Below, one piece after another: positions 8,446 through 64,000 of a DNA stretch of 64,000 nt. The translations under genes and the position numbers were made by a program. The notes beneath the pieces were generated by a model that saw only the letters and a program-made list of their open reading frames with translations, made no database searches and was not told the DNA's origin. Origin of the DNA: Cirrosporium novae-zelandiae (lineage: Eukaryota); NCBI GenBank assembly GCA_026023565.1, contig JAPETS010000044.1:62001-126000 (forward strand), read 5' to 3'. Positions within the stretch are counted from its first letter, which is position 1, and every line of letters begins with the position of its first letter.

Positions 8446-10203
8446 ATCGCAATGATTGAATTCCGATAACGGAGTTTCAATAGCAATTCTTTTTTTTTCT
8501 CTTTCCTTTTTTTGATGTGGAGAATTTGTTGTGTGGGTAAGGTGGGGTAAATTAAAGCGGGGACGCAAATGAACACTTTGTGGTGCCTGAGGCAGAATAT
8601 TATTTATTTTGTGTTCCCAGGTTGTACAAAGTAAAACAATCGTAGATCTAGAAAGTCATGCTCCAAATAATGGTAACCCTCTAATGCAGATTGAAGCTGT
8701 AACTTAGTGTGTAACCTATGCAACTCAAGATGAAGACTTTTCTAATTGTAGATGGGCGCTAATTGGTTTCATGAGATTTGAGCGGGGGATATTTGATTGG
8801 CCGAGAAGTTGCCGGTTGGATAGCGTCATGTGACTCATCTCTGGGAATTGATTCTTAGCCACTTGTGCCATTGAACGAACAAAGTTGATGTTGTGTTTCG
8901 TCCCAATGTGTCACAGAGGAAATGTATGGATCTGCAGGCACAGCAACTTTCCCGTGGTTTCCGGCCACATCGTCACGGCTGAGCTTGGACTATTGAATAT
9001 TAAATGTATAGATATTCCAAGTACAGCACAACAAATATTGTTGTCATCTTTTATTGTATTCAGCTGACAGTCTTCAAAGTTGAACTGAGTACCTGGGTAC
9101 CTAGGTAGTTAACTAAATACCTTCTATAATAATCAGATAGGCGATGAAGGAATAATTATCACAAACGCCAGAATTTAGATTGAATTTGGTACATGCCTGT
9201 ACTGTACAGTACAGTACATGTACATATTAAAGTCCATGCATAGCATCTGCCGAAGATTCTGCAGGAAAGTAGGGTGTGGAGACAGATGACGGGGTATCAA
9301 GCTTGTTTTCACGGCGTAAAAAACCTGCAAGGAACCGACACCATCTTTCGAGAATAAAGCAGGGTGCATCTCCCACAGAAGATTTGGAAGAGATGGATCA
9401 CCTTCATCTGCTCTTCTGTGTCCCCTTGTGGCAGCCTGCAGCCTGTGTATATGAATTCTTGTGTCTGGTCGGATTGTTGGCTTCTGATGTTCAGAGGCTA
9501 AGAACCGTTCCCTGGGCCATTTGGTTCTATCTTGGGTTCGAGCATCGTCGCATGTCAAGTCGTTTATTGAGAGCAGATTCTTCAGACAAACTTCTAGAAC
9601 CGTTGGCTGCTAGCTGATGGGGAAGTGGCATCTGTAGACCAATCCTTATCCTTTCTTTCTTTCATCTTCTTCCAAGTCAAGCCTAAACAAAGAAACGACT
9701 GGATCTGAAGCACTCCCAGGTGGATGGGCTTGATACCAGCGTCTATTTTCGGAACACCAAAGACAAAGAAACATCCGCCATATCTCATAGCCATAATTGC
9801 GACATGGAATTCTGAAACATTTCTTAAATGAAAACCCTTGTTTGGGATCCAGCTGTTATTATTGTGGCTGTTCATTTGGACTGGCCGTATCTTTGTAAGT
9901 ATCTTATTGTCTCCATTGTCCACCTCCCTCTCCATTGACCATTCGCCCAACACTTCAACTATTCACTACTCACATGAACATTTTTCTTTTTTTCATTGTT
10001 ATCATCGTGAACTTCTTTTAACTATTCTTTGCCATTCACCTCGTTGTTCTACTAGAATACAATAGAAGGCAACTTCAACATTCGTTAATATTCTAATAAT
10101 TTCTCTTGACCTCCCCCCAATACTTTGAAACTTCGATCATTTACACATAGACGGCTCGACGCTTCAACTTCTATTGTATATTTCAAAATTTATCTTTACT
10201 AAA

Positions 10204-27168: not shown

Positions 27169-28137
27169 CTATTCAAGAGCCATCTCTGTTCCACAAAATA
27201 AATCCGATTCTTTGAGGTCGAGAACCATCATATGCCCAGGTGCATGAGCCATGACATTTCCCTTAATTTTCGACTTTGCATCCATGACTACCTGCTGAGG
27301 AGTAACTCCACAGCCCTATGAGATGACGATGATAATGTCAACAACCAACCAAAAAAAAACGAAGCTTGACCAAGCCAATTCTAGATTTGTGTGTGCCAAA
27401 CTTACCCAAAAAACTGGTACCTCTCCCTCCTTGAACTTCACAGGCTGACCAAAATCCGGTGCCTGCACATCCTTGATTCCCAACTCCTCGCAAGCTTTCC
27501 ACCCCCAAGCTATGGGCTCCCCATGCATCCCCATGAACGACCTCGTGATATTCCGAACCTCTTCGATTTGCTCTGGCAGATAGGGACGCATGCTGACGAC
27601 GTAGGTCCCCTCGGTAAAGATACCCGCAGGGTTGAGCCGTCTCGTCGTATTGAACATGGTCACATTGCACGAATCTTCCCAATGTCGAGGCGTCAGCCCT
27701 GCTTTCGAAAGCGCATCCTCGAAACTGAAACTACATCCTATCAGAAACGCAACATGATCCTCCGTCCATTCGGACAGGATGTCTGTTTTGGTATCCACAA
27801 GCCGTCCGTCACGATAGACGTTGTATTTCGGAATATCGGTTCGGATGTCAAAATCTTGAGTGAATATCTTCTTCTTCCCCCCTAGACCTGCATTGTTGGA
27901 GGATGCTATCACGACTTTGGAATTCCCAATAGGGGTGTATGCAAGCAGAGGACAAGGGACGGGATTCCTAGCACACAGGTCTGAGAAATCTTTCGCTGCC
28001 TTTGACGGGAGAACGAGAAGGTTTGCCTGGATATATCCTGGGGCCCAACCAGCTGTGGGACTCTGTAGAGATCCAAAGCGGCATTGCTGCCGAACGTCGT
28101 ATGCTGTCTCGGTGGAGATTGGTGATAGACTGCCCAT
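27169..28137 (-). CDS. DUF1445 family putative hydro-lyase / D-glutamate cyclase-like protein (292 aa; intron 27316-27405)
   Basis: Motifs PGYIQANL, CARNPVPCPLL, DIRTDIPKY, FLIGCSFSFE, YVVSMRP, HGEP, PVFW|GCGVTPQ, HAPGHM are characteristic of DUF1445. Confidence 0.88.
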
Positions 28138-28320
28138 GTTGGTTGGCGACCGAAATAAACTCAAAGACTCAAAGACCGCTCATAGAAATAATCATTGAGT
28201 TTTTGCGACAAAGATATTTGAATTCCCCAAACGCTTTTTTACCTTCTATATTTTACAGATAACGAATAGTGATCCCATGCGAAGATGCAGACAAAGCTCC
28301 ATTAGAAGGATTTCGTTGAT

Positions 28321-44827: not shown

Positions 44828-46168
44828 ATGGCAGCGACAACAACAACATCCTTACCCGTATATATTACTTCCTCCACTTCTACAGCTTCTCTGGGTTAGT
44901 ACTGACTGCATTTGAATAGCCTCAAGAGCATAACGACGTTGACTCAGCACTTGGGTCAGATACAGAATCACTCACTCAGACCATCACCGCTGAAAATTAT
45001 AGATATCGGTATCTAGACAACGGGCGGTCAATTCACCCATTTGAGAGCGCGGGCTATCTGCTTCCAAATGATGAACGAGAGAAACATCGCTTGAACTTCC
45101 AACATGGCATTTGGTTGACCACTTTGGATGGGAGATTATATCTAGCTCCTCTCAAGCAGGATATCCAGAATGTGCTCGATGTTGCCACGGGCACTGGTAC
45201 ATATATTCAATCCATGACTAGAAAGTAATTCTCACACAAAGCAATAGGCATTTGGGCTATGGAATTTGCGGACAAGTTTCCCTCTGCACAGGTTATCGGG
45301 ACGGATTTAAGCCCTATGCAACCAAATTTGTGAATATTAATTCATCTGTTGCGGCTCCCAGACCCTGACCAACCTTCCAGGAGTGTGCCACCTAACTGTT
45401 CATTCGTTGTTGAGGACAGTGATAATAGTGAATGGATTTTTGATATCAAGTGAGCGTTAGCCGATTAAAAGAGGGCACAAGAACAAAACCAAGATGAGAG
45501 GGGCTAAACGCATGGTGATAGGTTTGATTTCATTCATAATCGATCATTAACATCAGGGTGGAAAAACTGGCCTCGTTACTTTGATAATTGCTACAAGTAT
45601 GCATGGACTAGTGTCTGACTGACGGAAATGTCTAAATATGACTCTTAGGTTCCTCAAGCCAGGTGGCTGGCTCGAATGTCATGAATTTGAAATGACCATG
45701 GTAAATGCCGATGATGGTTCCAACACTCCACCAAATAACCTCTGTGTTGAATGGAGCGGCTTCATGCGCGATGGATGTATGGCTGGCGGTGTCAACCCTC
45801 AATGCGTTTCTCACTTCGGTGAATACCTTAGAAATGCCGGTTTCATTGATATTCACAAAACGCTGTACAGATGGCCGTGGTGTCCATGGAGCGATGATCC
45901 GAAAGAGAAGGAAATAGGGAGAATGAATGCCATAAACCAAGATGCGAGTAGTATGAGTCTGGGACTACTTACAAAGAATTTAGGATGGAGTCGGGAAAGG
46001 GTGGAGGTTTATTTAACTGGGGTGAAGAAGGCATTGCTGGATACAAATTTACATACATATGTTCCTGTGTGAGTAACCCCTGTTGCATTCTCAGCGTGAT
46101 GATTCTGATGTTGTATCAGGTTCATATGGTGGGCACGAAAGCCCGAAATCCTAGAGCCCAACAAATAA
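44828..46168 (+). CDS. SAM-dependent methyltransferase (LaeA-like/Methyltransf_23 fungal family), multi-exon
   Basis: [73 protein letters not shown], final exon WARKPE. Confidence 0.92.
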
Positions 46169-46515: not shown

Positions 46516-49500
46516 ATGTCCGTAAGGACTATCGACATTATTCAAGACGATGGCGTCTTGCCTTCGCCAGCAAAAAAACAGAAACTGCTTGCTTGCCGAC
46601 GCTGTCGGCATCGGAAACAAAAGGTATCGTCAAATATCGAATATCGAATATCGAATATCAGGCTCAAAGCTAATTCATCCCAGTGTGATGAAGTTCGACC
46701 ATGTGAGAATTGTACAAGGTCTGAAGAAGGTATGTATCTTGAAAGCAAGCCCTTACAACACACAATTAAGCTGAAACCTATTAGAATGCGTGCCGACTGA
46801 GCCTGCTTCGGCCAAATCACAATATGAGACTGGGTAGGTGAAGCAATCACTACTTAATGCCAATTCAAAATACATGTTGCATGGCTAACTACCACTCTCA
46901 AATAGATTTATCCAAGTATTAGAGCAAAGGATCGCTGAGCTTGAATCACTGAACCCGCGCGAATCTCTCGATCATCTACCTCAACCATTTCCTACCGAAC
47001 ATGCCTCTGCAAGAGAGTCTCAGGGGGAGTTGCATAGGTTAAACAACACAAGGAAAAGGAAACGGGCGTATTCCAAGTCTATCAACCTTAATTTACATCT
47101 ACCCGAAATATCAATCGACAGCAGTCAAACTACATTTGCAACACACTCCACGGCTCAGCAGGCCCCTTCTGTCTCACCCAATCATGAAAATAGCTCCAAC
47201 TCTCCTCGAAACTTCTTAGGGAATCACTCTGCATCAGTGGTTGACTCTGCCGCGGAACTTGCGTCGATGAATAGACGACACTGGCGTAATGCCACAATCC
47301 AAACGGGATTTGAAACCTCCACAGTTGAAGGCATCACAGTCTTAGCAAGTATGGACCACGGAAGGAATGGAGAGATTGGATCTTCCCATTCAAATTCTAC
47401 GAGTGTAAACAACATCCCCCAAGCGATTGCAAGCGCCGATAACTCCGCCCCCCCTATTAATATTTCTCCCCAAATGGAAGATTTATTTGTGAAAGCATAT
47501 TTTGAGAGAGCGTATTGTCGATATCCTTTTCTTGGTCCTAGAACATTTTATACTTGGCTTAATTCTTGGAAATCACACTCTTCTCAGTTGAACCCCAGTG
47601 ATGAAAACGACCTTTGGAAAGGTTTCTTTGTTAACATGGTAAAACGCATTTATAAAACCTCAGGGTTCATCTTCAAAACAATTAGCTGACTAGTTTGTAG
47701 GTCTATGCTGTTGGTCTATTGTTGGCAACTCAGGATGCGACGGAGAGAAAACACAGCTCACAGGTAAGTCCAATTGTTATTCTAGATGTTAATCCAACGA
47801 TTGAGAAGAATCAGCTGCTCAGATTGGAATTTAGACAATTTACAACTATGCTGTTAGCGTCTACTTCCCGGCTGTACTAGCACATCACAATCGAGTTCTT
47901 CATGCACAAGCGTACTTATTAATGGCAATGCACGCTCTTCACTCACCTTCCAGTGAAAAGATCATTACACTGGCCTCCTGTGCAATGCGCTCTTGTACCA
48001 TGGGCCAACTTCACATCTCGGAGTCCGTACTTGGGTTAAGTAATAAAGCAACTTTTCAGGAATTACAAACCCGTCGACGAGTGTTCTGGTCTGCCTATGC
48101 ATTGGACAGGGCAGTGGGTACTGCTTTTGACCTTCCATTTACAATTTCTGATGACAATATTTCCGTCGAAGTCCGTACCACCACCCTGACCACTTAAGAC
48201 ACTAGACTAAGAATAGTAGATGTTTGCGAACGTCGATGATGATGAACGACTTCTCCAAGCCACCGATTCGCCTCGGACGAGAGAACTCCAGAATAGTGTT
48301 AGCCGCACAAGCATCTCATCAGCCTTACACATTGTTCATTGTAGACGAATACAATCCGAGATCCTTAGCACTACCCTCCACCATAGCTTTCTCAAACATC
48401 CAAATTCTATATCTGACTGGAGATCTCGCATTTTAGCTAAATTAGATCACTGGAAATCACAGTGCAAGCAGTTTTCCGACCCTGACTCGAAAGGATACAC
48501 AAGTGATGGGTGGCTAGGTATGATATATCATTATAGCCTGGTTATGCTCTATAGACCCACAAAAGCAAGTGTGAGTGGGCCAGCTGGTGATTGGTCTGTT
48601 CAAGCAAGCAGTAAGGCTTGTTTAATTTTTCGGGGATTTCAAAAGGAGCGAACAATCGCACAGCATTGGCTTGGAGTAGGTTTAATTCCTTTCTATTCAT
48701 TGCTTCATATATTTGCGAGCCCTAGGTGTACTCAGGCCAAGATGCTGGATTTGAAAGATGTAGCGAGAAGAAATTTGTGTCATTTAACCTGTGATTTAAA
48801 TGTTGATTCCGGAGAGGCCTTAATTTCTCTATGGATGCCATGTTAAGGAGGTCATTATGCGCTGCAGACTCGATAGTCCTTCTCTTATTCTAGCACTCGC
48901 GAAGCGCTAATATTTTGACCCTTTGAGATCACACTGCGAACATTGATTTTTCGGAGGCCTTGAAGACTTTCTATAATCCTTCAACTTTGAATTGCATTCA
49001 GTCAGACAAGAATATCACTGGGACTAATAGTTCTGTAGTTGCTTACTCAATTTCAAATTGGTGTTACACTACTATATTGCTTTTGGGCTACGCCGCCACG
49101 TTTTCGAACCGATTCATACTACTCTCCTGATGTTCCCGATGCTCTTCGGGCCTGTTCTAATGTCCTTGCTATTCTTGCCGAGCGCTGGAAGGAAGCAGAC
49201 TGCTTACGCGACGTCTTTGAACTGTTGGCTCGAAATATACCGCTCGTTGACCGACCCCTACACCCGAGACGTGGTCACCCCGACTATGAAAAAGGTACTT
49301 ACTCAAGTCCCCAGCGAGTGAGCAGTGAGGTAGAAAATAAAATTCGGTCGAGGTGGGCAATGCTTGAAAGTCTCGTCGTTCACCGTGCAATTCTAAGAAT
49401 GATTGACGAAATGATAAGTGAGGATTTTCCTCGCCCGGAGGATGATGCGGCTGAAGAAGTAATCGAACAAGGGAGCCGACTTCAATTAATACGGCCGAGA

Positions 49501-49665
49501 TGGTCTTATATCGATCAGCAACAATTTACCGGAGATAATGATAATGGGCTAGCTCTGCAGTCATCATTCTTGGACAATAGTTTTAGCTTTCTAACCACCA
49601 ATTCATGGCCATTGGGAGAAATGGGGCAGAACTTTGATCAAATATCTAGTATTCAAATTACATAA
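46516..49665 (+). CDS. Zn(II)2Cys6 transcription factor with fungal-specific TF domain, multi-exon
   Basis: ACRRCRHRKQK|CDEVRPCENCTRSEE|ECVP, coiled coil IQVLEQRIAELE, RRRVFWSAYALDR, C-terminal ACSNVLAILAERW. Confidence 0.9.
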
Positions 49666-49787
49666 CTTCAGAGACACGATAACGGGTTCAAGTTATCACC
49701 ATGCTAGCTCAATCTATTCCCAAGTCTTGTTATGACATTTCTCTCGGTGGGAGTTATGTATTTTCAACTACTCACGAGGAAGGCTTA

Positions 49788-51271
49788 TTAACCAAACTCC
49801 TTCAGAACCTCAGCTAGTCTTCTCACACCTTCAGCTATTTCATTCTCTTCATGCCAAGCCCAGGTAAGCCGCGAACTTCTCTCTATAAGATTTCGATTTT
49901 CAATTTTCGTCTTATCACCCCAGGCTAAGAACATAGTCCCATATGGAATTTTCAATGCATAATTATCAAGAGCGCGGGCGGCAATTACATTTGCGGGAGG
50001 CAGTTCCGCCGGGAAAGTGATATAAATAAAGAACCCTCCTGAAAAACACTGGTACTCTTGTCCCTCGCTTTCTGTCCCTAGTGTAGGGAGACTCGATTCA
50101 TACGGTTTACCAGTATCAATCTTCACCCCTAGCGGAATGAGGTGCTTAGAAATGGCTGCCATTAAAACGTGATAACGTTTCTCATAAGTAGGTATCAGGA
50201 CTGAAGCGATGTGAGATTGCAGATCTCCAGTCGAAAGAAGGTCGTCAATGAAGACGGATGTAAATTGGCTAGGTGCCCCTCCTGATCGCGTACTTCCTCT
50301 AAGAATAATGTCAGTTTTGCAAATATTTCTGATTCAATTAGGTATTAAGGGACATACACAATGCTCAACCGTGAAGAAAATGCTTCAGTTCCTTCAGCCC
50401 AACCGACCCTAACTCCTGGGCCTACAAGTTTTGAAAATGATCCGTTACTCACACTATTACCCCAATCCCCCGAGCCCTCTAACTTTCTATCTAGATCCAC
50501 AATCCTGGGAGGAACAGGACCTGGCAATGCATAGCCATTTGTGATCTTCGAATCAGTGGGCCATCTAAGGAAATCGTATACATCATCTGTGATGATCAGC
50601 GCATCAAACTTCCGCGCTAGTTGCAGCAATTGAATCCGTCGTGCCAGAGACATTGTCTTCGCACTGGGATTAGAAAATGTAGGGACCGCATAGATGATAT
50701 GCTTATAAAGCTTGGGATATCTGGGTCCTGCTTTATATGACTGTTCTTCGGGTCTCGTTTGGTGGTCAACAGCTTCGATGGCTTTTTCTAAGAAGCTCAC
50801 GTCTAGGCCTTCATTATCCTCTGGAACGCCGGTTAATCGGCCTTGGAAACCGGAATCTTCAAAAATGCGGCACGCCAAAAAATATGTAGGCTCGATCATC
50901 CAGATTCTCCGGGTGTAGATTGGGTCCGTGAACACCTGCAAAATGCTGGCGAGGTTTTGCGAGGCACCTCCAGTTATACAAATTCGTCCTTCGCTGATCC
51001 GACCAGCTTCTGGCATATAGAAGTCAGAGAGCCAGGCGGCAATACTTTTGCGCAGTGGACCATGCCCAATGTCTGGCCCATAGAGAAGAGCCGCTGTGGC
51101 AAGATCTGGGTTTGACAGAGCTGTGATTGATGCTTGCTGCAACTTAACTGTGGGAAGAAGCCGAGGTGATGGCCTATAATATTTAATTCCTCGTTCATGT
51201 CATTTGGCAAATGCTGTGAATGATTATACTAACCAGCCTAGTTGAAGATTGATTGGAGCTAACTCGTCCAT
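49788..51271 (-). CDS. Class I/II PLP-dependent aminotransferase (YER152C/2-aminoadipate transaminase-like), two introns
   Basis: INLQLGW|PSPRLLP, LLYGPDIG, ITGGASQNL, EPTYFLA, YAVPTFSNPS, ITDDVYD, SNGSFSKLVGPGVRVGW (PLP lysine), GGFFIY. Confidence 0.92.
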
Positions 51272-51499
51272 GCTTTAACATATAGTATTAGAGCAAAGGA
51301 GAGCGTTATATGGGCATTTATTGCAATGATTATATCTGTCATGGTAATTGACAAGCTATGAAGCCTTCCAGAGATTTTTCTTGGTTGCTTTGTTTGGTGA
51401 TTTCAATACGCAGTTTTGCCCTTATTCCCACGCGGATATACAATGGACTCTAAAGCCTAGTGTTGGAACAGAATGATAGGTATAGATGGGCACCGTTCA

Positions 51500-51690
51500 C
51501 GTCATCAAAGATAACGATAACGCTCCCCTGCAACCTTCAACTGGGACGCTGAGACTAGGTTAGAGCCGGCTTTTGGGATTAAAGCCTTAGGACTGAGGCT
51601 AGGTTTCCTCCTCACTTCGGGCACTTCGGGCCTCGGCATGTAAAGAAATCTGGCCGAAGGTTTCGGACTGTCAGTCCGATGAACTACTGC
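51500..51690. promoter_or_regulatory. Divergent-promoter elements: GATAA pair (51510, 51516), CACTTCGGG direct repeat, and the 17-bp palindrome TCGGACTG-T-CAGTCCGA (51663-51679)
   Basis: Seen directly between the divergent ATGs at 51271 and 51966. CGG triplets are the typical Zn2Cys6 half-sites. Confidence 0.55.
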
Positions 51691-51965
51691 ATGCACAAGA
51701 GGTATCCACCAACATCCTAGTCCCACGGGCACCATCTCCTATCAGATCTCTATTCATTTCCGATATGATTGTAGGAAGTATAATCTACACTGCTTGGATG
51801 TAGGCAAACTAGCCGAAATGATTGATCATGTCACCATATGCAATATTATACTTGACGTCGTGGGTATGACGGGATTGCCTTTGGATATAGGATGTGGTTA
51901 CTACATCCTCATCCACCACAAAATACTTCTTGAGCAAAAGGTTATTATTTAGTATACCCAGCAAC

Positions 51966-53987
51966 ATGCCACAACGCACTCAGAGTCTCGATGCCGAGCA
52001 GGCGCAATTTGATCAGGATGTAGCAGACATCAAAGCGTGGTGGAAGACTCCTAGACAAGCTCATCTCAAGCGGTACGCCTCACCTGATATTTTAATCAGT
52101 ATTACATGTCTAACAAATAGCACAGGCCATACGCAGCTGAAAGAATTGCTGCTATGAGAAACACTGTCAAACAGCACTATGCTTCCAGCGACCAAGCTCT
52201 CAAATTATGGGGACAATTGAATGAGCACTTGAAGAATGGGACGTACGAAATGACATTTGGAGCTACAGGTGAGAATGTCATATGAATTCAAATGTTTACA
52301 GTTGCTAATTCTCATTAAGATCCCATAATGGTCTCTCAAATGGTGAAGCATCAGCAGGTCAGTCACTGGGAAAATAATAAATAGTCAAAAACTACAAGTG
52401 ATTAATCACATGGCTTCTACAGACTGTCTATGTATCAGGCGCTATATGCGGTCTTTCTGAAGTTTCACACTTAGGGATGGACCACGCCGATTATCCCTGG
52501 GACACTGTCCCTAAAACCGTTGACAGAATATTCCGTTCACAGATGTGGCATGACCAACGCCAACATCATTTCAGGATGCTTCACAAGAAGGAACATCGAG
52601 ACAAACTTGAGAATTGGGATTACTTGGCTCCCATTGTCGCTGATGGGGATATGGTGAGTTGATTTGCATTTCTATATTTCCATAGACACTCCTAACCCTT
52701 GTTGTATAAAGGGCTTCGGCGGTTTGACTTCGACAATGAAGTTGGCCAAGGCGTTTGTTGAAGCCGGTGTAGCCATGTTCCATATTGATGATCTCGCGAT
52801 CGGTAAGATTTACAAGTTTTATTTCTATGTGCTCCAGAAGCTGATCCAAGGTGGTAGGCCTAAAGAAGTTCACTGCCGGTCAGGGGAGAACAATAGTTCC
52901 AACAAGCGAATACCTCTCACGTCTTACTGCAGCACGCATGCAATTTGATATCATGGGGGCTGAGACCGTAAGCTCTGCAAACTTCTGAATTTCATCCAAG
53001 AAACCGATTCTCTAACGACTGGTTAAGATGTTACTTTGCCGCTGTGACACGGACCATTCTGAGTTTATTACATCAGTAATAGACCCCCGTGATCACAAAT
53101 ATGTCATTGGAGCTACTGTAGACATCAAACCCCTGGCTCAAGTCCTTGAAAAAGCGGCTGAATCTGGAAAAGCCAACCTCAATACGGTGAGGTCTGACTG
53201 GATGAAATCCGCTGGTCTCGCAACCTTTGACGAAGCGGTGAAAATTGAAGCTACTGAAGATCAATACCAAAGCTACATGACCGAGATCTCAGACCGCACT
53301 GTATCCCTAGCAGAAAGGCGAGCCATTGCAAAGAAAGCGCTCAGCAAGGACGTCAAATTCGACTGGGAGCTCCCGCGGTCGAAAGAGGGCCAATACCTAT
53401 TCAAATCCTGCGTCACAGCAGTCATTGAGCGAGCACTTCTTGCTGCCCCTTTAGGAGACGTAACGTGGGCTCGAATGGACGCACCCGGTAAGCCATACCC
53501 CTATCTACTCTAACCCCAGCCATCTAACCAAAGAACCTCCAAAGTCTGGACCGACATCCTCGAATTCCACACCGAAGTACGAAAAGTCTACCCGAACCGC
53601 CTCTTCGCCTTTGGCTACACGGGAAACTACCCCTTTGCTTCCAAGGGCTTCTCCCCAGCCGAAATCTCCTCCTTCCCTTCCGACCTTGCCAAGCTCGGCA
53701 TCGTCTGGCAAACACAACCGATCTGGGCCGCTCAGGGGGTCAACCTCCTAACAAACGGGTTTGCAAAGATGTGGAGGGAGGAAGGGATTGAGGGGTATAT
53801 TAGGGAGGTCCAGGAGCCGGCGATGGCGACGGAGCCAATGACGGATGGGTTTGAGAAGTTGAGCTGGTGTGGGGCGTATCTTGCGGATGCGTTTTTGGAA
53901 ACGGTGGCGGCGAGGGATGGGGAGGAGGGGGGGGTGGATGTGAGGATTGCGGGGGATGGGGTGTTGGGGGTTAATAGGAAGCGTTGA
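51966..53987 (+). CDS. Isocitrate lyase-superfamily protein with a non-canonical active site, multi-exon
   Basis: Collinear with fungal ICL: IKAWWKTPRQAHLKRPY, TVYVSG, DHADYPWDTVPKTVDRIFRSQMWHD, YLAPIVADGDMGFGG, IDPRDH, LAKLGIVWQ, YIREVQEP. The catalytic KKCGH is replaced by KKFTA. Confidence 0.9.
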
Positions 53988-56866: not shown

Positions 56867-57710
56867 TTTTAGGAAATGCAAAAAGAATCGCGAGAAGGGC
56901 AGGCAGGGTGTGGAGAAAGGAAAAGGCTGAGCAACTGGTTGTACAGAGTAGAGAGAGTACCATCGAGAGCTGGGGGATTCTGTCCATTTTATCATCCCTC
57001 CTACCATTCCTGGACGTGAGACGTGAGGCTTAGCAGGCCAATGGATGACCTTAACTAACCGCGAGGCTATCTATCCAACTACAGACTTGCTCAGCTTTCA
57101 ATAGCCCTAAAGAGATTATTGGCTAAAGACCCTAGTATATATATTTCGATTTAATTGGTACTGATGTTATATTGTGTAACGATTTAAAATTATGCTATGA
57201 AAAATATGCTAGCTATGATAGTGTATTCCACCACAATAGCCTTTGAGATGATTCCACGTGGACCACGCTAAGAAAAACTAAACTTATTCAGATAATTATG
57301 CAGTTTATGTTGATGAAATTACATCTTTCACAGCTAATCAATCCATCTAATCTAATCTTGAAGAGATCTCTGGTCATGTGATTCCTTCAATTATTTTTGA
57401 CCCGATCGCTTAGTTAATAATTAGTCTAAATCGTAGCCTAAGGCAAAACGGCGTTTCTGTTTCCCGCCTCCAACTCTAATGTCATCCTCATTTCGTCATG
57501 AATATATCCTTCGACTAGCCTTGGTTCACTACAAGTACAAGTACCCATGTCGCTTTACAGCAACTATCAACCAACCCTCCAAGTGTTATAAACAGTGGGA
57601 TTTTGCTCCTCTCTCTTCCTGTGACCAGCAACAGATGGCCATGTTTCCCAACCTTGAATAATACGATACACGAATCAATACTCTGGTCACGGCGGCTACA
57701 AGCAGAAGCC

Positions 57711-59777
57711 ATGGAGCTTGACTATGAACGAGATGATTCACCAAGTATTCCATCCTTTAAAATCTGTGAGAAGGCAAAGAAGTTTGGTGAAGAGATGACA
57801 ATGGAACAGGAAGAGGAAGATGCGTTGGCCATTGAATTCGACTACGATGGTTCACAGTTAACACCGGAGCAAAGACGGGCCATTTTCATGAAGTGGTTCG
57901 CCTATCATTTGAAAGATAATGGTCTTCGATCACCACAATACTTTGAAGACAAATCGCAATGTCTCTCTATTATGGAAACCGTCTGGCCAGGTGCAGTAGG
58001 CTATTTCAAAGCTAATAGGTTGAAGCGCGGCTATATAGACCCAGAGAAGCTGACGGCACGACTACGTGAGTTGAAGCCGTCCGACAATTTCGAACTCCGC
58101 AAGTTTCGCCATCCTCCTATGTCATGGAAAAGTCTTACACCACTGAGAGAAAAAGGCTTTGAGAGATTTCCACCTGACCCAGACTGGCTAATCATGCAAT
58201 TGACCGACGTGAACTGTATGCGAAGACGATTAGGGAATCGGTTGACTGATAAGTATCAGCGGGAAATAAGGGATCGGTGGAACGCAGTCGAATCCGGCGC
58301 GGAACTGGAACCTTCTCCTGATTTGCATTTATTGAGAGATATGGGGCATAGTCCGGGCGGAACACTCTTCCCTTGGTACCTGGTCAAGGGACTTATGGCA
58401 TTGCATGATCATGCCTACGACGAGGGGTGCGAACTATACGATGAAGAGTATGACAGTGCAACGGTCAAAAGAGAAGAGGCGATTATTCGCTGGAGGAAGA
58501 GAAACCCCGATTCGATACTGGCAGATGATCCGGTTTCTATTTATGGGACTTGGCCCGCGGATTTGATGGATGAGCTGGATGAGATAGACCGGGAGGCCAT
58601 CCGATGCGGAAGGAGAAAGTACGTAGCCCTCCTCAGAGAGACGGGAGAGAAGATGCAGGCACTGGTTGCCTTCTGGAGAGACTGTGGGCTTGTTACCGGA
58701 CACAGGACCCCACCCTCACCTTGGTGGCAAGATCCCAAGGCCAAAGCGGAGCGGCTCCCCAAGCCACAATATTTGAAGGAACGATTGGATGCCATCAATA
58801 CAGAGTTTGTTCATTGGACTGACAAGGCTGAAAAGCTAAGAATGATCGAAACATCACACTGGATAGAGACAGTTATCAACACTCATTCCGAGCCTGCTGC
58901 ATCTGATACTCCCTTCCCACAACCACTGCTTGATGAACTGGATATTGTGTGGCGGGACCGTGATTGGCTAGATCATGACGACACCGAAGATGAAATGATC
59001 GCCCGAATACGTGAATGGAGGAATTCGAAACACCGGCAACGTCTTAAAGAGGAACTTCGTACGTCACCGCAGCTTGGTTCAGATGCTGGCCCAGAAGAAC
59101 CGGTTCAAAAAGCAACAAATCGAGGATATTCCGGGCAAAGGAATCTGTTACGGGACAACGTATCAGGTCCAGCCATGGCGCCAGAAGAAACACGGCAGCT
59201 CCAGGAAAAATTATCCAAAGGAACACGCCGTCGGCTCCAGACGAAGATTACGATGGTAGAGGACCAGACGATCTGGCAGGGGAGGCTTCGATCTAGGACA
59301 AATCCTACGATGGAAGAAGGCCAGACGATCTGGCAAGATAGACTTCGGCTCAGGCGTAGCGGAGTCAGCGCTTCACGCGAGAGCCTCAACCCGGCACATA
59401 AACCGACAGGAAAGCCTAAGGGCATCGTAAAACAATATCGCAGGAATGCATCGAAGAAGCAGCAAGTAGTCACGAAAGGTCAAGCCGCCACCGCCAATAT
59501 ACAGAAGGCAGGCCCGCCTCACCTAACTAGTACTCAGCCGCAATCTCATTTCAACGAACGCTCTACCCAAGCAATACCTCATAGTGCCACAAAGTCTAGA
59601 AGAACGAAGGACTTGAGACGTCAGTCCCTTCGCCAAGCCAATGCGGTGCAAGCACAAGGTGCACAAAAGGCCTGTAGCACCAAAGAAAGGCAGTCTTGCA
59701 GGCTCACGAGCGCTGCGCTAACGACAAAGCGTAACCAAGAGCTTTCCCGCCTCCTTACGCCACCCCGATCAGAGTGA
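57711..59777 (+). CDS. Hypothetical intronless protein (~688 aa) with internal repeats and a basic disordered C-terminus
   Basis: Uninterrupted ORF (57603-59777, first good ATG 57711) with coding-like composition. No family was recognised. Confidence 0.7.
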   Translation: MELDYERDDSPSIPSFKICEKAKKFGEEMTMEQEEEDALAIEFDYDGSQLTPEQRRAIFMKWFAYHLKDNGLRSPQYFEDKSQCLSIMETVWPGAVGYFKANRLKRGYIDPEKLTARLRELKPSDNFELRKFRHPPMSWKSLTPLREKGFERFPPDPDWLIMQLTDVNCMRRRLGNRLTDKYQREIRDRWNAVESGAELEPSPDLHLLRDMGHSPGGTLFPWYLVKGLMALHDHAYDEGCELYDEEYDSATVKREEAIIRWRKRNPDSILADDPVSIYGTWPADLMDELDEIDREAIRCGRRKYVALLRETGEKMQALVAFWRDCGLVTGHRTPPSPWWQDPKAKAERLPKPQYLKERLDAINTEFVHWTDKAEKLRMIETSHWIETVINTHSEPAASDTPFPQPLLDELDIVWRDRDWLDHDDTEDEMIARIREWRNSKHRQRLKEELRTSPQLGSDAGPEEPVQKATNRGYSGQRNLLRDNVSGPAMAPEETRQLQEKLSKGTRRRLQTKITMVEDQTIWQGRLRSRTNPTMEEGQTIWQDRLRLRRSGVSASRESLNPAHKPTGKPKGIVKQYRRNASKKQQVVTKGQAATANIQKAGPPHLTSTQPQSHFNERSTQAIPHSATKSRRTKDLRRQSLRQANAVQAQGAQKACSTKERQSCRLTSAALTTKRNQELSRLLTPPRSE

Positions 59778-62290
59778 GATCCAAGTAGTCAATTGAGCCT
59801 CGCGACTGCCAAATTCCGACGCAAAACACGAATTAATCGACACCTCGTAAATAGCCCACAAGGTCAGCTAAGAAATCTACGCTGCGATCGAAGCTCTGGC
59901 AGGTTTTCCCCGGTAGATACAACGCCAGGACCTCACTGACACGAGCAAACACCAAGAGTGTGCCGCCAGACGATATCACCTTTGATCGATGATATGAGAG
60001 GGATATAGCTAACACCTTTTAAGTGCGGACTACTACCTTAACACCTTTACTGCTTAACAGGGCTGCCACTACTCTAGCGCTTCTCTAGCAGTTCGTTGAG
60101 AACTACCTCCCTCCCAGCCCAAGATATCAAGGAAGAGACATCATGGTGACACGGTGGCAGACAAGCATAGATTTCTAGAACGAGGCCCGAATTCATCAAA
60201 ACGTCTCATCAAAACCACGAGTAAATTTAGATGCAGATTATTACTTGACGGCTTTCCTTCGGAGATCCATGGATAGGTATCGGACTCTGGAGATGTCATG
60301 CACGACTTCGAACTCTATGATCCTAGAAGTGCTGATATGATAACCTCGCAATTCAGCACACTTAAATCTCGCGCACACCTCACATCTAAAATTATTAGGA
60401 GTTATTCGATAGCCTTCCGTGGTACATGGTACCTATCAATTAGACATAACCTGAAGATTAAAAAATCGCCGGAACGGGTCCTCATAACAAGACTCAACAT
60501 AGCCACCCTCTACCAGGTGCCGTTTTCAATCCCCATAACGACCCAGCCTGTTAACTGGACGGCTGATAACCACATGCATTCTATTTTACGAGGACTATTT
60601 TGGGCCCTATGATTCTTTTTCATATCGAGTCAAATACGCAGCATTCGAACTGGACAACACGTAGCACCTACTACAGAAGCTTTCGGCAACCACGGCAGAT
60701 AACAGTAAACCACGATGCCATAGTGGAAGTCAGGCACTCTATAACCATCGACCTGGAATCAAGCGACGACGATACCCAGGAACCGAGCGTGAAGGAACAA
60801 AGTCTCATGGCGAAAATATTTATGCGCTGGACTATTTCAGTATTAATTATCCATTGCTCCCTCTATATGTGCTAAGTCCGCCTACGGCGTGAAGACAATT
60901 AGGAGCCGCGCTAGCTCTAGTGGGATGTCTTTTTAGCTATACAGGATCATATTTACCAAGACAGGGACCCAAATACTTGCCAGGGCCTTCGGTCTGAATT
61001 GATGAAAGTGCGACGAGATAACAAGCGACTACAACGAGAGATTAGCAGACTACGAAAACAGCGTATCCGGGATAAGGCAATTATCACCCATCTAGCAGCA
61101 TCCTACCGTTAAGGGGCCTAATGAGAGGTCCTAGTGACCACAAACATGATGGTATGAAGGAAAATGACATAAAAATCCTTTCGCAAAGGAAGAGAAGAAG
61201 AATTATAAATGAGAGTGGCAACGGCAACCAAAGCGACAATCGCGAAACGGATACAAGTCCGGACAAGGAGATAGAACTAGATCGAAGCAGAAATAAAGGA
61301 TAGAACCTGTGTTTTAAGAACACTGCTGAGATGCTTCAAACCGAAATTCCTCTAGCTACTGTTTGTGTTTCTATAGACTTTCATTTTACCATTCCTCTTC
61401 AATATAGATTTAATTGGCGTTGCAATATGGACAGATTTCTTTTTCTGGTTTCAAAAGGGCCTTTAGACCTTCATTATATATTCTTCAGATTTAATAATAG
61501 GCTAGGCAGAGGACAGACCAACCTATTGAGATATATTCTTGAAAACAAAATTTCAATCTATAAAACTATTCAGTTCTGGTAAAAGTAGCTGCAGCAGTAG
61601 TCGTCTATATACGTATAAGATGCATGATTTTTTAATAACCCACACGTAAAGCAAACTAAAGAAAAATCATCATATCACATACTCAATCCATCCATCCATT
61701 CCATCCTAATACCCCACCTCATCATAAAAATCACAAAAAAATCATACTTTAAGTGGGATTATGCAACGATAGGAACCAGTTCTGGATAGGACAGGTTAGG
61801 CATCGGACTCCATGTCCGACGACGAACGACCTCGGTCCCGGCCCCGGATCCCGATTCCGATCCCTATCCCTATCCCCGATTGCCGAGTTCACACCCTTGG
61901 CCCTAGTCCCCTCCCAGGCCCCCTCCACTATCTACCGTACCTACCTAGGTATCTATCTCCAGCTATCTATAGTGAGGGTACTAGAGTAAGTGCAAGGTTA
62001 TGTATGTGGTGTTGCCCACATCCCACATGCCAATCTAATCCAATCCAATCCAATCCACCGTGCTGGACGATAGCTATTAATATTAAAATCAATGCTAATA
62101 TCAGTATCAATATCTTTAATCCAGGCAACCTCTCGTGATCGATCTGTCGATTCAATTGATGCATGGGATGTAGAGATAGCTAGGTACGTAGGTAAGTAAA
62201 GGGAGATAGATAGATAGGTAGATAATGATATACACGCACATACATACTTAGTACACGCATGCATGTGGATTAGCTCAAAGATACATTCAT

Positions 62291-62523: not shown

Positions 62524-64000
62524 ATGTCCCCCACCACCACCACCATCACCACATCCGACAAAAAACCCCCTACCTCCCCCAAATTCAAATCTCCCTCTTC
62601 AATCTCTGCCACTTCCCTCCCCACCGACATCGACATCGATGTCGATATCGCCGCCGCCTACGCTTCCGATATCACAACCTACATACCGCAAGAAGCGAAA
62701 CGGTTACGATGGAAGCTGGATTTGAGATTGGTGCCGTTGTTGTGGTTTAATGTTACGTTGGGGGCTATGGATAAGGTCACGACTGCTACGGCGGCTTTGT
62801 GAGTTTTTTTTTTGGTTTTGGTTTTTTGGGGGGGAGGGGAGTAAAGGGGAGAATGTGTGGCTGATGGTGGTGGTGAATAATAGATATGGTATGAGAGCCG
62901 ATACGGGATTAGTGGGGGAGCAATATTCTTGGGTTGCGAGTGTTTTTTACGTATGTATGACCGACCCTAGGACCGTTATACCCCAATTTCGTTTTTGTAA
63001 ATTTTCGTTGAGATCCAAAATGAACACATGCACGTTTTTGGAATAACTTTGCTGACCCACTGTGCCCTTGCACTATCCATCCATACAGTTTGGCTATCTC
63101 ATCTGGTGTTTTCCCTCGGCAATGATTCTGCAGCGCCTTCCAATCGCCAAAACGATGGCAATAGCACAAGTAATCTGGGGTATTATCCTAATAGGGACGG
63201 GATTCGCGCAGAACTTTCCAACTATGATTGCGCTGAGGTTGTTGCTGGGAATTTTGGAGGCGCCGATTATTCCTGGGAATTTGTTGGTGCTTTCAATGTG
63301 GTATACTAGAAGGTGAGTTGGTTGTTCTGTTGTTGGCTTTCGATGGCTCTGTGCATGTGTGGTGGTGGTGGTGGAGATGTTAGTGCGGAGAATAAGAGGG
63401 TTGATGGTTTTTGGGTAGTGAACAATCGCTTCGTTATGGATTGATGTATACCGGGCTTTCGGTTTGTTTTACGGGCCCTATTGGTTATGCGTATGTGCTC
63501 CCTTATGTTGCATTCGCACTCCTTGCTTGTGTTAACATAATCAGTATTGGATTCATCCACGGCGATTCACCCGAGATATGGCGTATATTCTTCTGGATCA
63601 CCGGCGGTATGACGGTAGTGTGGTCTCTCGTTCTTGGCCTTTTCCTCCCCGATAACCCAGTCAAGGCGAAATTCCTCAGCGAGCGTGAAAAGGTTATTGC
63701 CATAGATCGAGTTCGAGTTAACCAGACAGGAATCGAGAATAAGAAATTTAAGAAGGCGCAATTTATCGAGGCTATGCTAGATCCAAAAACGTGGCTGATG
63801 TTTTTCTTTAATGTTTGGGTCAATGTTCCGAATGGAGGTCTTACGAATGTGAGAAGCCTGATAGTATACCTCTTTTCTTTTATCGAGAAGCTGATTGAAT
63901 CTGGATAGTTTTCTCCCTTGATCATTAAGGGGCTGGGCTATACTTCGCAGCGCTCTACTCTCCTGACAATGCCGTGCGGAATCATGCAGACAGTTTCCAG
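62524..64000 (+). CDS. MFS transporter, allantoate permease (Dal5/ACS) family; 3' end outside the window
   Basis: EAKRLRWKLDLRLVP..MDK..AALYGMRADTGLVGEQYSWVASVFY|FGYL..LQRLP..RLLLGILEA..MWYTR|SEQ..LPDNPVKAKFLSERE..NQTGIENKKFK..PNGGLTN|FSPLIIKGLGYT. Confidence 0.9.

What the first reader, a model, noticed from the sequence alone, without database searches (positions are those of the whole stretch)
46516..53987. Candidate undescribed catabolic cluster: Zn2Cys6 regulator + PLP aminotransferase + re-purposed isocitrate-lyase-fold enzyme
Seen: three adjacent, apparently intact genes. The aminotransferase and the ICL-like gene are head-to-head on a ~700-bp promoter with CGG repeats, a perfect palindrome and GATA sites, and the TF ends ~120 bp from the aminotransferase stop. 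Established: housekeeping ICL/MICL genes belong to the glyoxylate and methylcitrate cycles, and ICL/PEP-mutase superfamily enzymes use Mg2+ to stabilise alpha-oxyanion carboxylate intermediates. Inference: a two-step pathway in which an unusual (hydroxylated or branched, dicarboxylic) amino acid is transaminated to a 2-oxo acid, then cleaved or decarboxylated by the ICL-like enzyme (or the reverse, biosynthetic direction), under a dedicated TF and possibly nitrogen control. I know of no described pathway with this combination.
Basis: partly seen in the sequence, partly recalled or inferred. Interest (0 to 1): 0.85.

Follow-up and report, generated by a model that had tools for sequence, protein, structure and literature searches.

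The report
Fungal gene cluster with cysteine-less ICL relative
Three neighbouring fungal genes (a regulator, an aminotransferase and an isocitrate-lyase relative that has lost the lyase's catalytic cysteine) belong to a gene cluster that stays together in many distantly related fungi, so they probably form an undescribed nutrient-breakdown pathway whose substrate is still unknown.

Summary
The window (named as a Cirrosporium novae-zelandiae MAG) carries three intact genes: a Zn2Cys6 regulator (46516-49665, +), a class-I aminotransferase (49788-51271, -) and an ICL-family protein (51966-53987, +).

The ICL relative lacks the catalytic Cys of the KKCGH loop, as do 98 of 98 close homologues that cover the loop. 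It forms its own clade (support 100), outside the ICL and methylisocitrate-lyase rows, and includes the S. pombe protein named "2-methylisocitrate lyase".

Linkage to the aminotransferase is conserved:
- 9 named genomes;
- 9 of 13 metagenome loci (the other 4 are contigs of 5.1 kb or less);
- 0 of 66 loci of other ICLs.

Elsewhere the cluster also holds a distinct 5-oxoprolinase paralogue, a gamma-glutamyl-peptidase-like amidohydrolase, an anion-type MFS transporter and the same regulator. Here only the transporter is found, 8.7 kb downstream.

Best reading: a regulator-controlled catabolic pathway for an acidic amino compound. The chemistry is inferred, and GATA sites are at background density. 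Seven literature searches found no description. This scan reported the same cluster twice on other DNA (e1-7585907, e1-7586008).

The parts
46516..49665 (+). Zn2Cys6 transcription factor, 805 aa. Exons: 46516-46623, 46684-46729, 46785-46833, 46906-47638, 47701-47763, 47835-48170, 48220-48675, 49039-49665.
   Evidence: Splice model (six Cys with canonical spacing, no internal stop). Fungal_trans Pfam hit. Orthologous to the regulator beside the ICL-like gene in L003/L011 (51-54% identity, E 1e-50 to 1e-69). That L003 regulator carries Zn_clus plus Fungal_trans.
49788..51271 (-). Class-I/II PLP aminotransferase, 454 aa (P0121). Exons: 51271-51234, 51173-50358, 50298-49788.
   Evidence: Model equals P0121. 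PF00155 hit. Nearest solved relatives are archaeal multiple-substrate, alanine-glyoxylate, 2-aminoadipate and kynurenine/aminoadipate aminotransferases. In the aminotransferase tree it falls in the clade holding all cluster-linked copies.
51272..51965 (.). Divergent promoter shared by the aminotransferase and the ICL-like gene (694 bp).
   Evidence: Bounded by the two start codons. Repeats found.
51663..51679 (.). Perfect palindrome (8-nt arms, 1-nt spacer) of the inverted CGG-N9-CCG type; candidate binding site of the cluster's regulator.
   Evidence: pair I3. The same class of site is enriched in cluster promoters of the other loci.
51613..51630 (.). Two tandem copies of a 9-nt unit that contains CGG.
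   Evidence: family D3. No function was tested.
51966..53987 (+). ICL-family protein without the catalytic cysteine, 540 aa (P0001). Exons: 51966-52072, 52126-52268, 52320-52357, 52423-52653, 52712-52802, 52858-52967, 53028-53487, 53545-53987.
   Evidence: Model equals P0001. PF00463 E 1.7e-125. Aligned with A. nidulans ICL 1DQU. Clade placement. Residue census.
61803..61859 (.). Three inverted CGG-N9-CCG sites, starting at 61804, 61839 and 61845. The first resembles the 51663 palindrome (4 mismatches in 17). They lie about 0.8 kb upstream of the first conserved MFS exon.
62680..64000 (+). MFS transporter of the anion:cation symporter type, orthologous to the transporter beside the ICL-like gene in the other loci. 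The first conserved exon starts at 62680. The true start lies somewhat upstream, and the gene runs off the window end.
   Evidence: tblastn and tblastx at 58-88% identity to the cluster MFS of L001, L003, L010, L012 and L026. The L003 orthologue scores best to TIGR00893 (2A0114), below that model's cut-off.

Best explanation
The three genes are the part of a conserved, regulator-controlled fungal catabolic cluster that remains linked in this genome.

In its full form the cluster has six genes: regulator, anion-type MFS importer, gamma-glutamyl-peptidase-like amidohydrolase, a dedicated paralogue of ATP-dependent 5-oxoprolinase, the aminotransferase, and the Cys-less ICL relative.

Proposed flow:
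1. An anionic nitrogen compound is imported.
2. Its amide form is hydrolysed by the amidohydrolase, and its lactam form is opened by the oxoprolinase paralogue. Both yield one acidic alpha-amino acid, probably a glutamate or 2-aminoadipate analogue.
3. The aminotransferase converts that amino acid to a 2-oxo acid.
4. The ICL relative binds the 2-oxo (or 2-hydroxy) carboxylate on Mg2+ and breaks or rearranges a C-C bond (retro-aldol cleavage, hydrolysis or decarboxylation). This reaction is neither isocitrate nor methylisocitrate cleavage.

The Zn2Cys6 factor would switch the genes on through inverted CGG-N9/10-CCG sites.

Shown: gene content, conserved linkage, separate clades, loss of the ICL catalytic residues with retention of the metal ligands, and enrichment of the cis-element.

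Inferred: catabolic direction, order of steps, substrate class, and that this regulator binds the element.
For: 1. Linkage in named genomes. Adjacent locus tags occur in Cirrosporium (006901/006900) and Fusarium nematophilum (013240/013241); in Claussenomyces the tags are 003902/003905. Ten unnamed contig lengths recur in both lists, some as small as 1115-6838 bp.

2. Linkage in metagenome loci. 9 of 13 clade loci carry the aminotransferase and 9 of 13 carry the oxoprolinase. The 4 without are contigs of 3.3-5.1 kb. 0 of 66 loci of other ICLs (520 kb) carry either.

3. Gene order differs between lineages (four arrangements plus the window's) while content is kept. That pattern argues for selection on clustering.

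4. ICL relative.
- 0 of 98 homologues covering the loop have Cys at residue 208 (96 Phe, 2 Leu). 22 of the 120 listed are fragments without the loop.
- 120 of 120 have Arg where ICL has the Glu of its W-M-E segment.
- The Asp170, Asp172 and Arg245 equivalents are kept.
- The clade has SH-aLRT 100 and a stem of 0.55, apart from the methylisocitrate-lyase clade (100) and the ICL rows (names).

5. Oxoprolinase. All 21 cluster-linked copies fall in one clade of 32, and 0 of 59 in the other. The split has support 1.0.

6. Amidohydrolase. Its best solved relative is gamma-glutamyl peptidase 1 (E 3e-9). It is present in 10 of the 13 clade loci, among them 8 of the 9 that also hold the aminotransferase.

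7. The MFS matches the anion:cation symporter subfamily best.

8. Cis-element.
- Inverted CGG-N9/N10-CCG: 36 sites in 26.6 kb of cluster promoter gaps against 40 in 203 kb elsewhere (binomial p 1e-14).
- Single-triplet density is equal, 22.0 against 20.7 per kb.
- N9 gives 16 sites and N10 gives 20, against 1-10 at the other spacings from 0 to 20.
Against: - No expression or biochemical data exist for any member.
- The window itself has no cluster-type oxoprolinase and no amidohydrolase. The only Cirrosporium oxoprolinase listed (P0293, on another contig) is of the other type, which I take to be the housekeeping one. The full pathway may therefore not run in this organism.
- Two named genomes have the listed ICL-like and aminotransferase genes on different contigs: Mollisiaceae sp. 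and Coleophoma crateriformis.
- Same-contig calls rest on identical species name and contig length, not on coordinates.
- Several metagenome loci are close relatives (L002/L003 identical; L004, L006 and L011 similar; L008/L009 identical), so site and locus counts are not independent.
- The exact 17-mer is not conserved: no match within 4 mismatches in any locus.
- The half-site consensus beyond CGG is weak: T at -1 in 53% against 30% background.
- All NCBIfam matches of the cluster proteins are below their cut-offs.
- Nothing shows that the ICL relative acts after the aminotransferase.
Confidence: 0.55

Rival explanations
1. Same cluster, opposite order. The ICL relative acts first as a lyase on a 2-hydroxy acid and releases glyoxylate (or another 2-oxo acid). 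The aminotransferase then aminates that product, for example glyoxylate to glycine, to detoxify or assimilate it.
For: The part of the ICL pocket that holds the glyoxylate end is kept: the Ser-Gly of residues 101-102, Arg245 and the metal-binding Asp residues. An alanine-glyoxylate transaminase is among the aminotransferase's nearest solved relatives (2zc0, E 2e-19).
Against: A lyase of the ICL type needs a general acid for the leaving carbanion, and the Cys that does this is absent in 98 of 98. This order gives no role to the oxoprolinase paralogue or the amidohydrolase, both of which produce amino acids.
Confidence: 0.15
2. The cluster salvages gamma-glutamyl compounds (a specialised gamma-glutamyl cycle). 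The ICL relative is not a catalyst downstream of the aminotransferase. It is instead a binding, regulatory or otherwise non-lyase protein.
For: A gamma-glutamyl-peptidase-like gene and an oxoprolinase paralogue occur together. The ICL catalytic residues are lost.
Against: The ICL relative is strongly conserved: 73% mean column identity across classes, metal ligands kept, and new invariant residues such as Asp249, His250 and Arg389. That pattern fits an enzyme with a new pocket better than a dead one. It is also kept with the aminotransferase here, where the other two genes are missing.
Confidence: 0.1
3. The cluster is biosynthetic. It makes an unusual amino acid or a small secondary metabolite, and the transporter exports it.
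For: One locus (L001) has a phosphopantetheine-binding ORF next to the cluster, and L008 has a dioxygenase ORF.
Against: Those neighbours are not conserved. The conserved set has no core synthase. ATP-dependent lactam hydrolysis and amide hydrolysis are degradative steps. The MFS resembles anion importers (below cut-off).
Confidence: 0.08
4. Nothing special: an ordinary methylisocitrate lyase or isocitrate lyase (as many database names say) that happens to lie next to an aminotransferase.
For: Source names include 'mitochondrial 2-methylisocitrate lyase' and 'isocitrate lyase'. The protein scores above the TIGR01346 isocitrate-lyase cut-off (369 against 276 bits).
Against: The KKCGH loop residues are absent. 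The clade is separate from the ICL2-like rows. Linkage is conserved across classes and absent from 66 other ICL loci.
Confidence: 0.02

Closest known systems
Fungal isocitrate lyase (A. nidulans ICL, PDB 1DQU) and fungal 2-methylisocitrate lyase (S. cerevisiae ICL2 type)
   Same: Same Pfam family (PF00463, E 1.7e-125). Full-length alignment to 1DQU (E 4e-104). The metal-binding Asp residues and the Arg of the R-T-D segment are kept.
   Different: Loop residues 208-210 are Phe-Thr-Ala instead of Cys-Gly-His. Ala103 replaces Trp, Asp199 replaces Glu, and Arg389 replaces Glu. Residues 417, 419 and 421 (Gly, Thr, Asn) replace the Asn, Ser, Ser of the N-x-S-x-S segment. The clade is separate. The genomic context is an aminotransferase/oxoprolinase cluster, not the glyoxylate or methylcitrate cycle.
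Cys-less members of the PEP mutase/ICL superfamily, such as oxaloacetate decarboxylase PA4872 and PEP mutase. Named from recall, not tested in a call.
   Same: Mg2+-bound alpha-oxo-carboxylate chemistry without the lyase cysteine is an established way this fold works. That is the basis for proposing a 2-oxo-acid substrate.
   Different: Those proteins belong to the short PEP_mutase family. P0001 matches PF13714 only weakly (E 3e-5, below cut-off) and is a full-length eukaryote-type ICL homologue.
ATP-dependent lactamases followed by an aminotransferase: caprolactamase CapA/CapB, and the A. nidulans lam locus (the latter recalled only)
   Same: The cluster oxoprolinase P0242 matches the caprolactamase alpha and beta models best (E 6e-81 and 3e-43). 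The logic of opening a lactam and then transaminating the amino acid is the same.
   Different: Scores are far below the equivalog cut-offs (273 and 148 against 1000 bits). The fungal protein is a fused 1330-aa 5-oxoprolinase paralogue. Neither known system includes an ICL-family enzyme.
Gamma-glutamyl peptidase 1 (PDB 9K7I)
   Same: Best solved relative of the cluster's class-I amidotransferase-like protein (E 3e-9), which suggests hydrolysis of a gamma-glutamyl-type amide.
   Different: The similarity is weak and partial (residues 69-193). This gene is absent from the window.
Kynurenine/2-aminoadipate and archaeal multiple-substrate aminotransferases (PDB 1X0M, 3AOV, 1WST, 2EGY, 2QLR)
   Same: Nearest solved relatives of the aminotransferase (E 2e-27 to 5e-13); same class-I fold type.
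   Different: Distant relatives, so no substrate can be read from them. The fungal cluster-linked copies form their own clade.

Membership tests
Isocitrate lyase family (PF00463) as a fold/homology family | Significant full-length match to the family profile and to solved ICLs | tested here: met
   PF00463 E 1.7e-125 over residues 18-515. 1DQU E 3.7e-104 over residues 10-515.
Isocitrate lyase (enzyme, EC 4.1.3.1) | KKCGH catalytic loop with the catalytic Cys. The motif is stated for ICLs in PMC11982470 (passages read). | tested here: not met
   Residues 208-210 are Phe-Thr-Ala. 0 of 98 close homologues covering the loop have Cys.
Isocitrate lyase (enzyme, EC 4.1.3.1) | Mg2+-binding acidic residues and the Arg that holds the glyoxylate carboxylate | tested here: met
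   Among rows that cover each position: Asp170 in 93 of 95, Asp172 in 94 of 95, Arg245 in 117 of 118. Asp199 replaces the Glu in 97 of 97. The roles assigned to these residues are recalled from the ICL structure literature.
Isocitrate lyase (enzyme, EC 4.1.3.1) | Succinate-side residues (N-x-S-x-S segment, Glu of W-M-E) | tested here: not met
   Gly417, Thr419 and Asn421 sit in place of Asn, Ser and Ser. Arg389 replaces Glu in 120 of 120. The roles are recalled.
Fungal 2-methylisocitrate lyase (ICL2/MclA type) | Falls in the clade of ICL2-like proteins and carries the K-(K/R)-C-G-H loop | tested here: not met
   The methylisocitrate-lyase clade includes an ICL2-like row and a Saitoella 'mitochondrial 2-methylisocitrate lyase' (names). 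It is separate, with support 100, and the focal clade is also supported at 100. The loop lacks Cys.
Zn2Cys6 fungal transcription factor | Six Cys with C-X2-C-X6-C-X5-C-X2-C-X6-C spacing, plus the fungal-specific TF middle domain | tested here: met
   Cys at 27, 30, 37, 43, 46 and 53 in the spliced model. PF04082 E 6.5e-10. The intron-free orthologue in L003 has PF00172 plus PF04082.
Class-I/II PLP aminotransferase | PF00155 match above cut-off; intact full-length protein with the PLP lysine | tested here: met
   PF00155 at 47.3 bits against a 19.7 cut-off. The 454-aa intact model equals P0121. I read the lysine from the translation as the Ser-x-Ser-Lys segment; this is my reading, not a tool call.
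Fungal metabolic (catabolic) gene cluster | Co-localisation of the same gene families conserved across distant taxa | tested here: met
   control.
Fungal metabolic (catabolic) gene cluster | Shared regulation of the member genes | tested here: inconclusive
   A shared inverted CGG-N9/10-CCG element is enriched in the promoters. No expression or binding data exist.
Fungal metabolic (catabolic) gene cluster | Members act in one pathway on a known substrate | not testable with these tools
   Needs genetics and biochemistry.

The most novel reading that the evidence does not exclude
The Cys-less ICL clade is ancient in Ascomycota. It is present from S. pombe to Pezizomycotina, with Cys-less sister lineages in Basidiomycota. 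It would catalyse a reaction not yet known in the PEP mutase/ICL superfamily. The six-gene cluster would be a complete, undescribed route by which fungi import and degrade a glutamate-like natural product in its amide, lactam and free forms. Control would come from a dedicated Zn2Cys6 factor acting through inverted CGG-N9/10-CCG sites.
Probability: 0.4. Interest if true: 0.8.

Novelty: new variant of a known kind. Interest (0 to 1): 0.68.

Why it matters
- A widely conserved, strongly constrained enzyme clade is filed in databases as isocitrate or methylisocitrate lyase, yet it cannot work as either. That includes the S. pombe member, which its source names a 2-methylisocitrate lyase. Metabolic reconstructions that rely on those names would be wrong.
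- The conserved partners (lactam-opening enzyme, amidohydrolase, aminotransferase, anion importer, dedicated regulator with a recognisable binding element) make the unknown pathway directly testable. Candidate substrates can be screened on knock-outs, and the regulator can be used to switch the cluster on.
- If the ICL relative proves to catalyse a new C-C reaction, it adds a function to a well-studied superfamily that is also a drug-target family.

Tried and rejected
- Whole genome: none is held for this window, so I could not look for canonical ICL or MICL, or for cluster genes beyond base 64000.
- RNA evidence: no RNA holder was listed for window 49788-53987. This says nothing either way.
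- Oxoprolinase and amidohydrolase in the window: tblastn with the cluster copies found none.
- Exact conservation of the 17-nt palindrome: no match within 4 mismatches in any of the 13 clade loci. Only the relaxed CGG-N9/10-CCG class is shared.
- GATA/nitrogen control: 4 HGATAR sites in 694 bp against about 3 expected from the window density. Rejected as evidence.
- D-glutamate cyclase ORF at 27.3-28.2 kb as a cluster member: no such domain in five other loci. Rejected.
- Non-conserved neighbours (PP-binding ORF in L001, dioxygenase in L008, Ap4A phosphorylase in L012, GMC oxidoreductase in L026): not part of the cluster.
- Literature: seven full-text searches found no description of the clade or the cluster. 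I saw listings and abstracts only, plus passages of PMC11982470. Subscription-only papers and supplements were not searched.
- Earlier scan notes: by sequence, none; for this genome, none.
- Structure prediction and complex prediction: not run. They would not have told the rival readings apart.
I repeated the residue census using residue numbers only.

Full report
**Observation**

The window is fungal. The two proteins recovered from the database are named as coming from a Cirrosporium novae-zelandiae MAG, class Xylobotryomycetes.

- ICL-like gene: 8 exons, 51966-53987 on the + strand, with seven GT..AG introns of 51-65 nt.
- Aminotransferase: 3 exons, 51271-49788 on the - strand. Its true start lies in a small upstream exon.
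- The two spliced products are letter for letter the database proteins P0001 (540 aa) and P0121 (454 aa).
- Regulator: 8 exons, 46516-49665, 805 aa. The six cysteines of the Zn2Cys6 motif fall into the canonical spacing only after splicing.
- Divergent promoter: 694 bp. The regulator's and aminotransferase's stops are 122 bp apart.
- Promoter repeats: a perfect palindrome at 51663-51679 and a tandem CGG-containing repeat at 51613-51630.
- GATA sites are present but at the window's background density. I count 4 in 694 bp, and the window holds 282 in 64 kb.

**The ICL relative**

P0001 is a full-length member of the ICL family: PF00463 at E 1.7e-125 and A. nidulans ICL 1DQU at E 4e-104. The residue-by-residue alignment with 1DQU shows that the catalytic loop is rewritten. 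The ICL motif is KKCGH, as stated in PMC11982470 (passages read).

| P0001 residue | ICL counterpart |
|---|---|
| Phe208-Thr209-Ala210 | Cys-Gly-His |
| Ala103 | Trp |
| Asp199 | Glu |
| Leu201 | Gln |
| Arg389 | Glu of the W-M-E segment |
| Gly417, Thr419, Asn421 | Asn, Ser, Ser |

The census of the 120 best homologues gave:
- Cys at position 208: 0 of the 98 that cover the loop (96 Phe, 2 Leu). The other 22 are fragments without the loop.
- Arg at position 389: 120 of 120.
- The metal-binding Asp residues and Arg245 are kept.
- Asp249 and His250 are nearly invariant in the clade and have no counterpart in ICL.

The functional roles I attach to the ICL residues are recalled from the structural literature, not taken from a call.

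I built a tree of 63 rows: 58 family proteins of 400-700 aa, 14 close homologues and 44 of the representatives, plus 5 rows over 700 aa that the script's filter let through (P0428, P0444, P0450, P0461, P0469). Five fragmentary rows were left out. IQ-TREE quick, LG+G4.
- The focal group of 17 rows forms one clade with SH-aLRT 100 on a stem of 0.55. It includes the S. pombe protein P0105, which its source names 'mitochondrial 2-methylisocitrate lyase'.
- It is sister (support 95) to ten other Cys-less rows. Three of the four I looked up are basidiomycete 'isocitrate lyases' (P0373, P0382, P0385); the fourth, P0378, carries no name.
- It is separate from the methylisocitrate-lyase clade (support 100). 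That clade holds a yeast protein described as similar to S. cerevisiae ICL2 and a Saitoella methylisocitrate lyase.
- It is also separate from the ICL rows.

The protein is therefore a homologue of ICL but not an ICL or a methylisocitrate lyase.

**Linkage**

Locus tags are adjacent or near-adjacent where they are shown. Ten unnamed contig lengths also recur in both lists. Two named genomes (Mollisiaceae sp., Coleophoma crateriformis) have the listed genes on different contigs.

A scan of metagenome contigs with a clade alignment returned 79 loci.
- 13 belong to the clade (63-68% identity).
- 9 of those 13 carry an aminotransferase orthologue, and the 4 without are contigs of 3.3-5.1 kb.
- None of the other 66 ICL loci (520 kb; 20 of them at least 10 kb long) carries an aminotransferase or oxoprolinase homologue. 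This control is weak for fungal housekeeping ICLs, because many of those loci are probably not fungal.

**The full cluster**

Pfam scans of five long loci and tblastn maps of all 13 show six recurrent genes:
- the regulator, orthologous to the window's (51-54% identity to the L003/L011 copy);
- an MFS transporter;
- the ICL relative;
- a class-I amidotransferase-like protein;
- the aminotransferase;
- a fused hydantoinase/oxoprolinase of about 1330 aa.

Gene order and orientation differ between lineages (four arrangements), but the content is kept.

The oxoprolinase search added further named genomes in which this gene shares a contig or neighbouring tags with the other two. In a FastTree of 91 full-length proteins, all 21 such linked copies lie in one clade of 32. 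None lies among the other 59. The split has support 1.0. Sordariomycetes and Dothideomycetes occur on both sides, so the cluster copy is a paralogue of what I take to be the housekeeping enzyme.

The other members:
- The amidotransferase-like protein's best solved relative is gamma-glutamyl peptidase 1 (E 3e-9).
- The transporter scores best to the anion:cation symporter subfamily TIGR00893.
- The oxoprolinase scores best to the caprolactamase subunits.
- The aminotransferase's nearest solved relatives are multiple-substrate, alanine-glyoxylate, 2-aminoadipate and kynurenine/aminoadipate enzymes.
- All NCBIfam scores are below their cut-offs, so these are resemblances, not memberships.
- In the aminotransferase tree, the window's protein and all linked copies fall in one clade of 67 of 84 rows (support 0.83). 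Eurotiomycete and lichen-fungus copies fall outside it.

**This genome's version**

The window has the regulator, aminotransferase and ICL relative together. The orthologous transporter lies 8.7 kb downstream, from about 62680 to the window end, beyond a protein kinase gene and a 752-aa ORF.

No amidohydrolase or oxoprolinase is in the window. The only Cirrosporium oxoprolinase among the 120 listed (P0293, on a 1.46-Mb contig) sits in the other clade, the one I take to be housekeeping. A cluster-type copy would probably have been listed, since such copies from other classes scored 58-60% identity. That is an inference, and the MAG may be incomplete.

The retained trio suggests that the aminotransferase and the ICL relative form the core, and that the other two enzymes feed it.

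**Cis-element**

A look-alike (4 mismatches in 17) and two more N9 sites lie at 61803-61859, upstream of the transporter.

I took 12 non-identical sources (11 loci and the window) and counted inverted CGG/CCG pairs at every spacing from 0 to 20 in the promoter-containing gaps between cluster genes (26.6 kb).

| Spacing | Sites | Sources with a site |
|---|---|---|
| N9 | 16 | 11 of 12 |
| N10 | 20 | 9 of 12 |
| Every other spacing | 1-10 | not summarised |

N9 plus N10 sites number 36 in the gaps against 40 in the remaining 203 kb (binomial p 1e-14). The density of single triplets is the same, 22.0 against 20.7 per kb. The sites sit in the transporter/ICL, aminotransferase/oxoprolinase and amidohydrolase/transporter promoters.

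Caveats:
- Several loci are close relatives, so the counts are not independent.
- The consensus beyond the triplets is weak.
- The exact 17-mer is not conserved.
- Binding by this regulator is inferred from the known habit of Zn2Cys6 dimers of recognising spaced CGG triplets.

**How it most likely works**

Shown:
- conserved gene content and linkage;
- a specialised paralogue for each enzyme;
- loss of the ICL catalytic residues with retention of the metal site;
- a shared promoter element.

Inferred: an anionic nitrogen compound is imported. Its amide form is hydrolysed by the peptidase-like enzyme and its lactam form is opened, at the cost of ATP, by the oxoprolinase paralogue. Both give one acidic alpha-amino acid. 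The aminotransferase makes the 2-oxo acid. The ICL relative holds the oxo-carboxylate on Mg2+ and cleaves, hydrolyses or decarboxylates it.

A gamma-substituted glutamate or a 2-aminoadipate-like acid fits all three entry forms, but nothing here identifies the compound.

Rivals are listed with odds: reverse order with glyoxylate amination; a gamma-glutamyl salvage system with a non-catalytic ICL relative; a biosynthetic cluster; and ordinary ICL/MICL by coincidence, which contradict.

**Novelty**

Seven full-text searches found no paper on the clade or the cluster. Subscription journals and supplements were not covered.

After I had reached this reading, a word search of this scan's notes showed that two earlier reports on other genomes describe the same thing: e1-7585907 (six-gene form) and e1-7586008 (regulator/ICL relative/aminotransferase form). 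They agree with what I found independently here.

This report adds the following; whether those earlier reports already held any of it I could not see from the short notes shown:
- the promoter element;
- the paralogue status of the oxoprolinase;
- the gamma-glutamyl-peptidase resemblance;
- the displaced transporter in this genome;
- the Cys-less basidiomycete sister lineages.

**Verdict**

This is a real, conserved and apparently undescribed fungal metabolic cluster, centred on an ICL-family enzyme with a new, unknown reaction. The chemistry remains a hypothesis.

Noticed in passing
window 27319-28179 (-): ORF with a D-glutamate cyclase domain (PF07286, E 1.4e-44), about 20 kb from the cluster. 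It is tempting because its product is a 5-oxoproline enantiomer, but no such domain occurs in the five other cluster loci scanned.
   Followed up: partly
window 48676-49038: The regulator's last intron is 363 nt, against 49-72 nt for its other six introns. The splice point was placed by comparison with the L003 orthologue. Nothing else was examined in it.
   Followed up: partly
proteins P0373, P0378, P0382, P0385, P0417, P0436, P0438, P0440, P0456, P0509: A second set of ICL-family proteins without the catalytic Cys is sister to the focal clade. Three of the four looked up are basidiomycete proteins (Mycena, Pseudohyphozyma) named 'isocitrate lyase'; the fourth, P0378, carries no name. Their gene neighbourhoods were not examined.
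   Followed up: no
protein P0105 and other hits: Database names for this clade ('mitochondrial 2-methylisocitrate lyase', 'isocitrate lyase', 'acetate utilization-3') conflict with the missing catalytic residues. This includes the S. pombe protein.
   Followed up: partly
window 57519-59774 (+) and 10129-12486 (+): Two long ORFs (752 and 786 aa) with no Pfam family at E 0.001. The first lies between the ICL relative and the displaced transporter.
   Followed up: no
window 44920-46069 (+): ORF pieces just upstream of the regulator gave no Pfam hit. By eye they resemble a fungal methyltransferase. This was not tested, and the ORF has no match in the other cluster loci.
   Followed up: no
whole window: HGATAR sites are somewhat more frequent in the whole window than in shuffles: 282 against a mean of 238 (sd 16), and 0 of 100 shuffles reach 282. 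This is a window-wide property, not one of the cluster promoter.
   Followed up: no
L001 21118-21651 (-); L008 17648-18139 (-): A phosphopantetheine-binding ORF and a 2-oxoglutarate-dioxygenase-type ORF flank the cluster in single loci. They are not conserved.
   Followed up: partly
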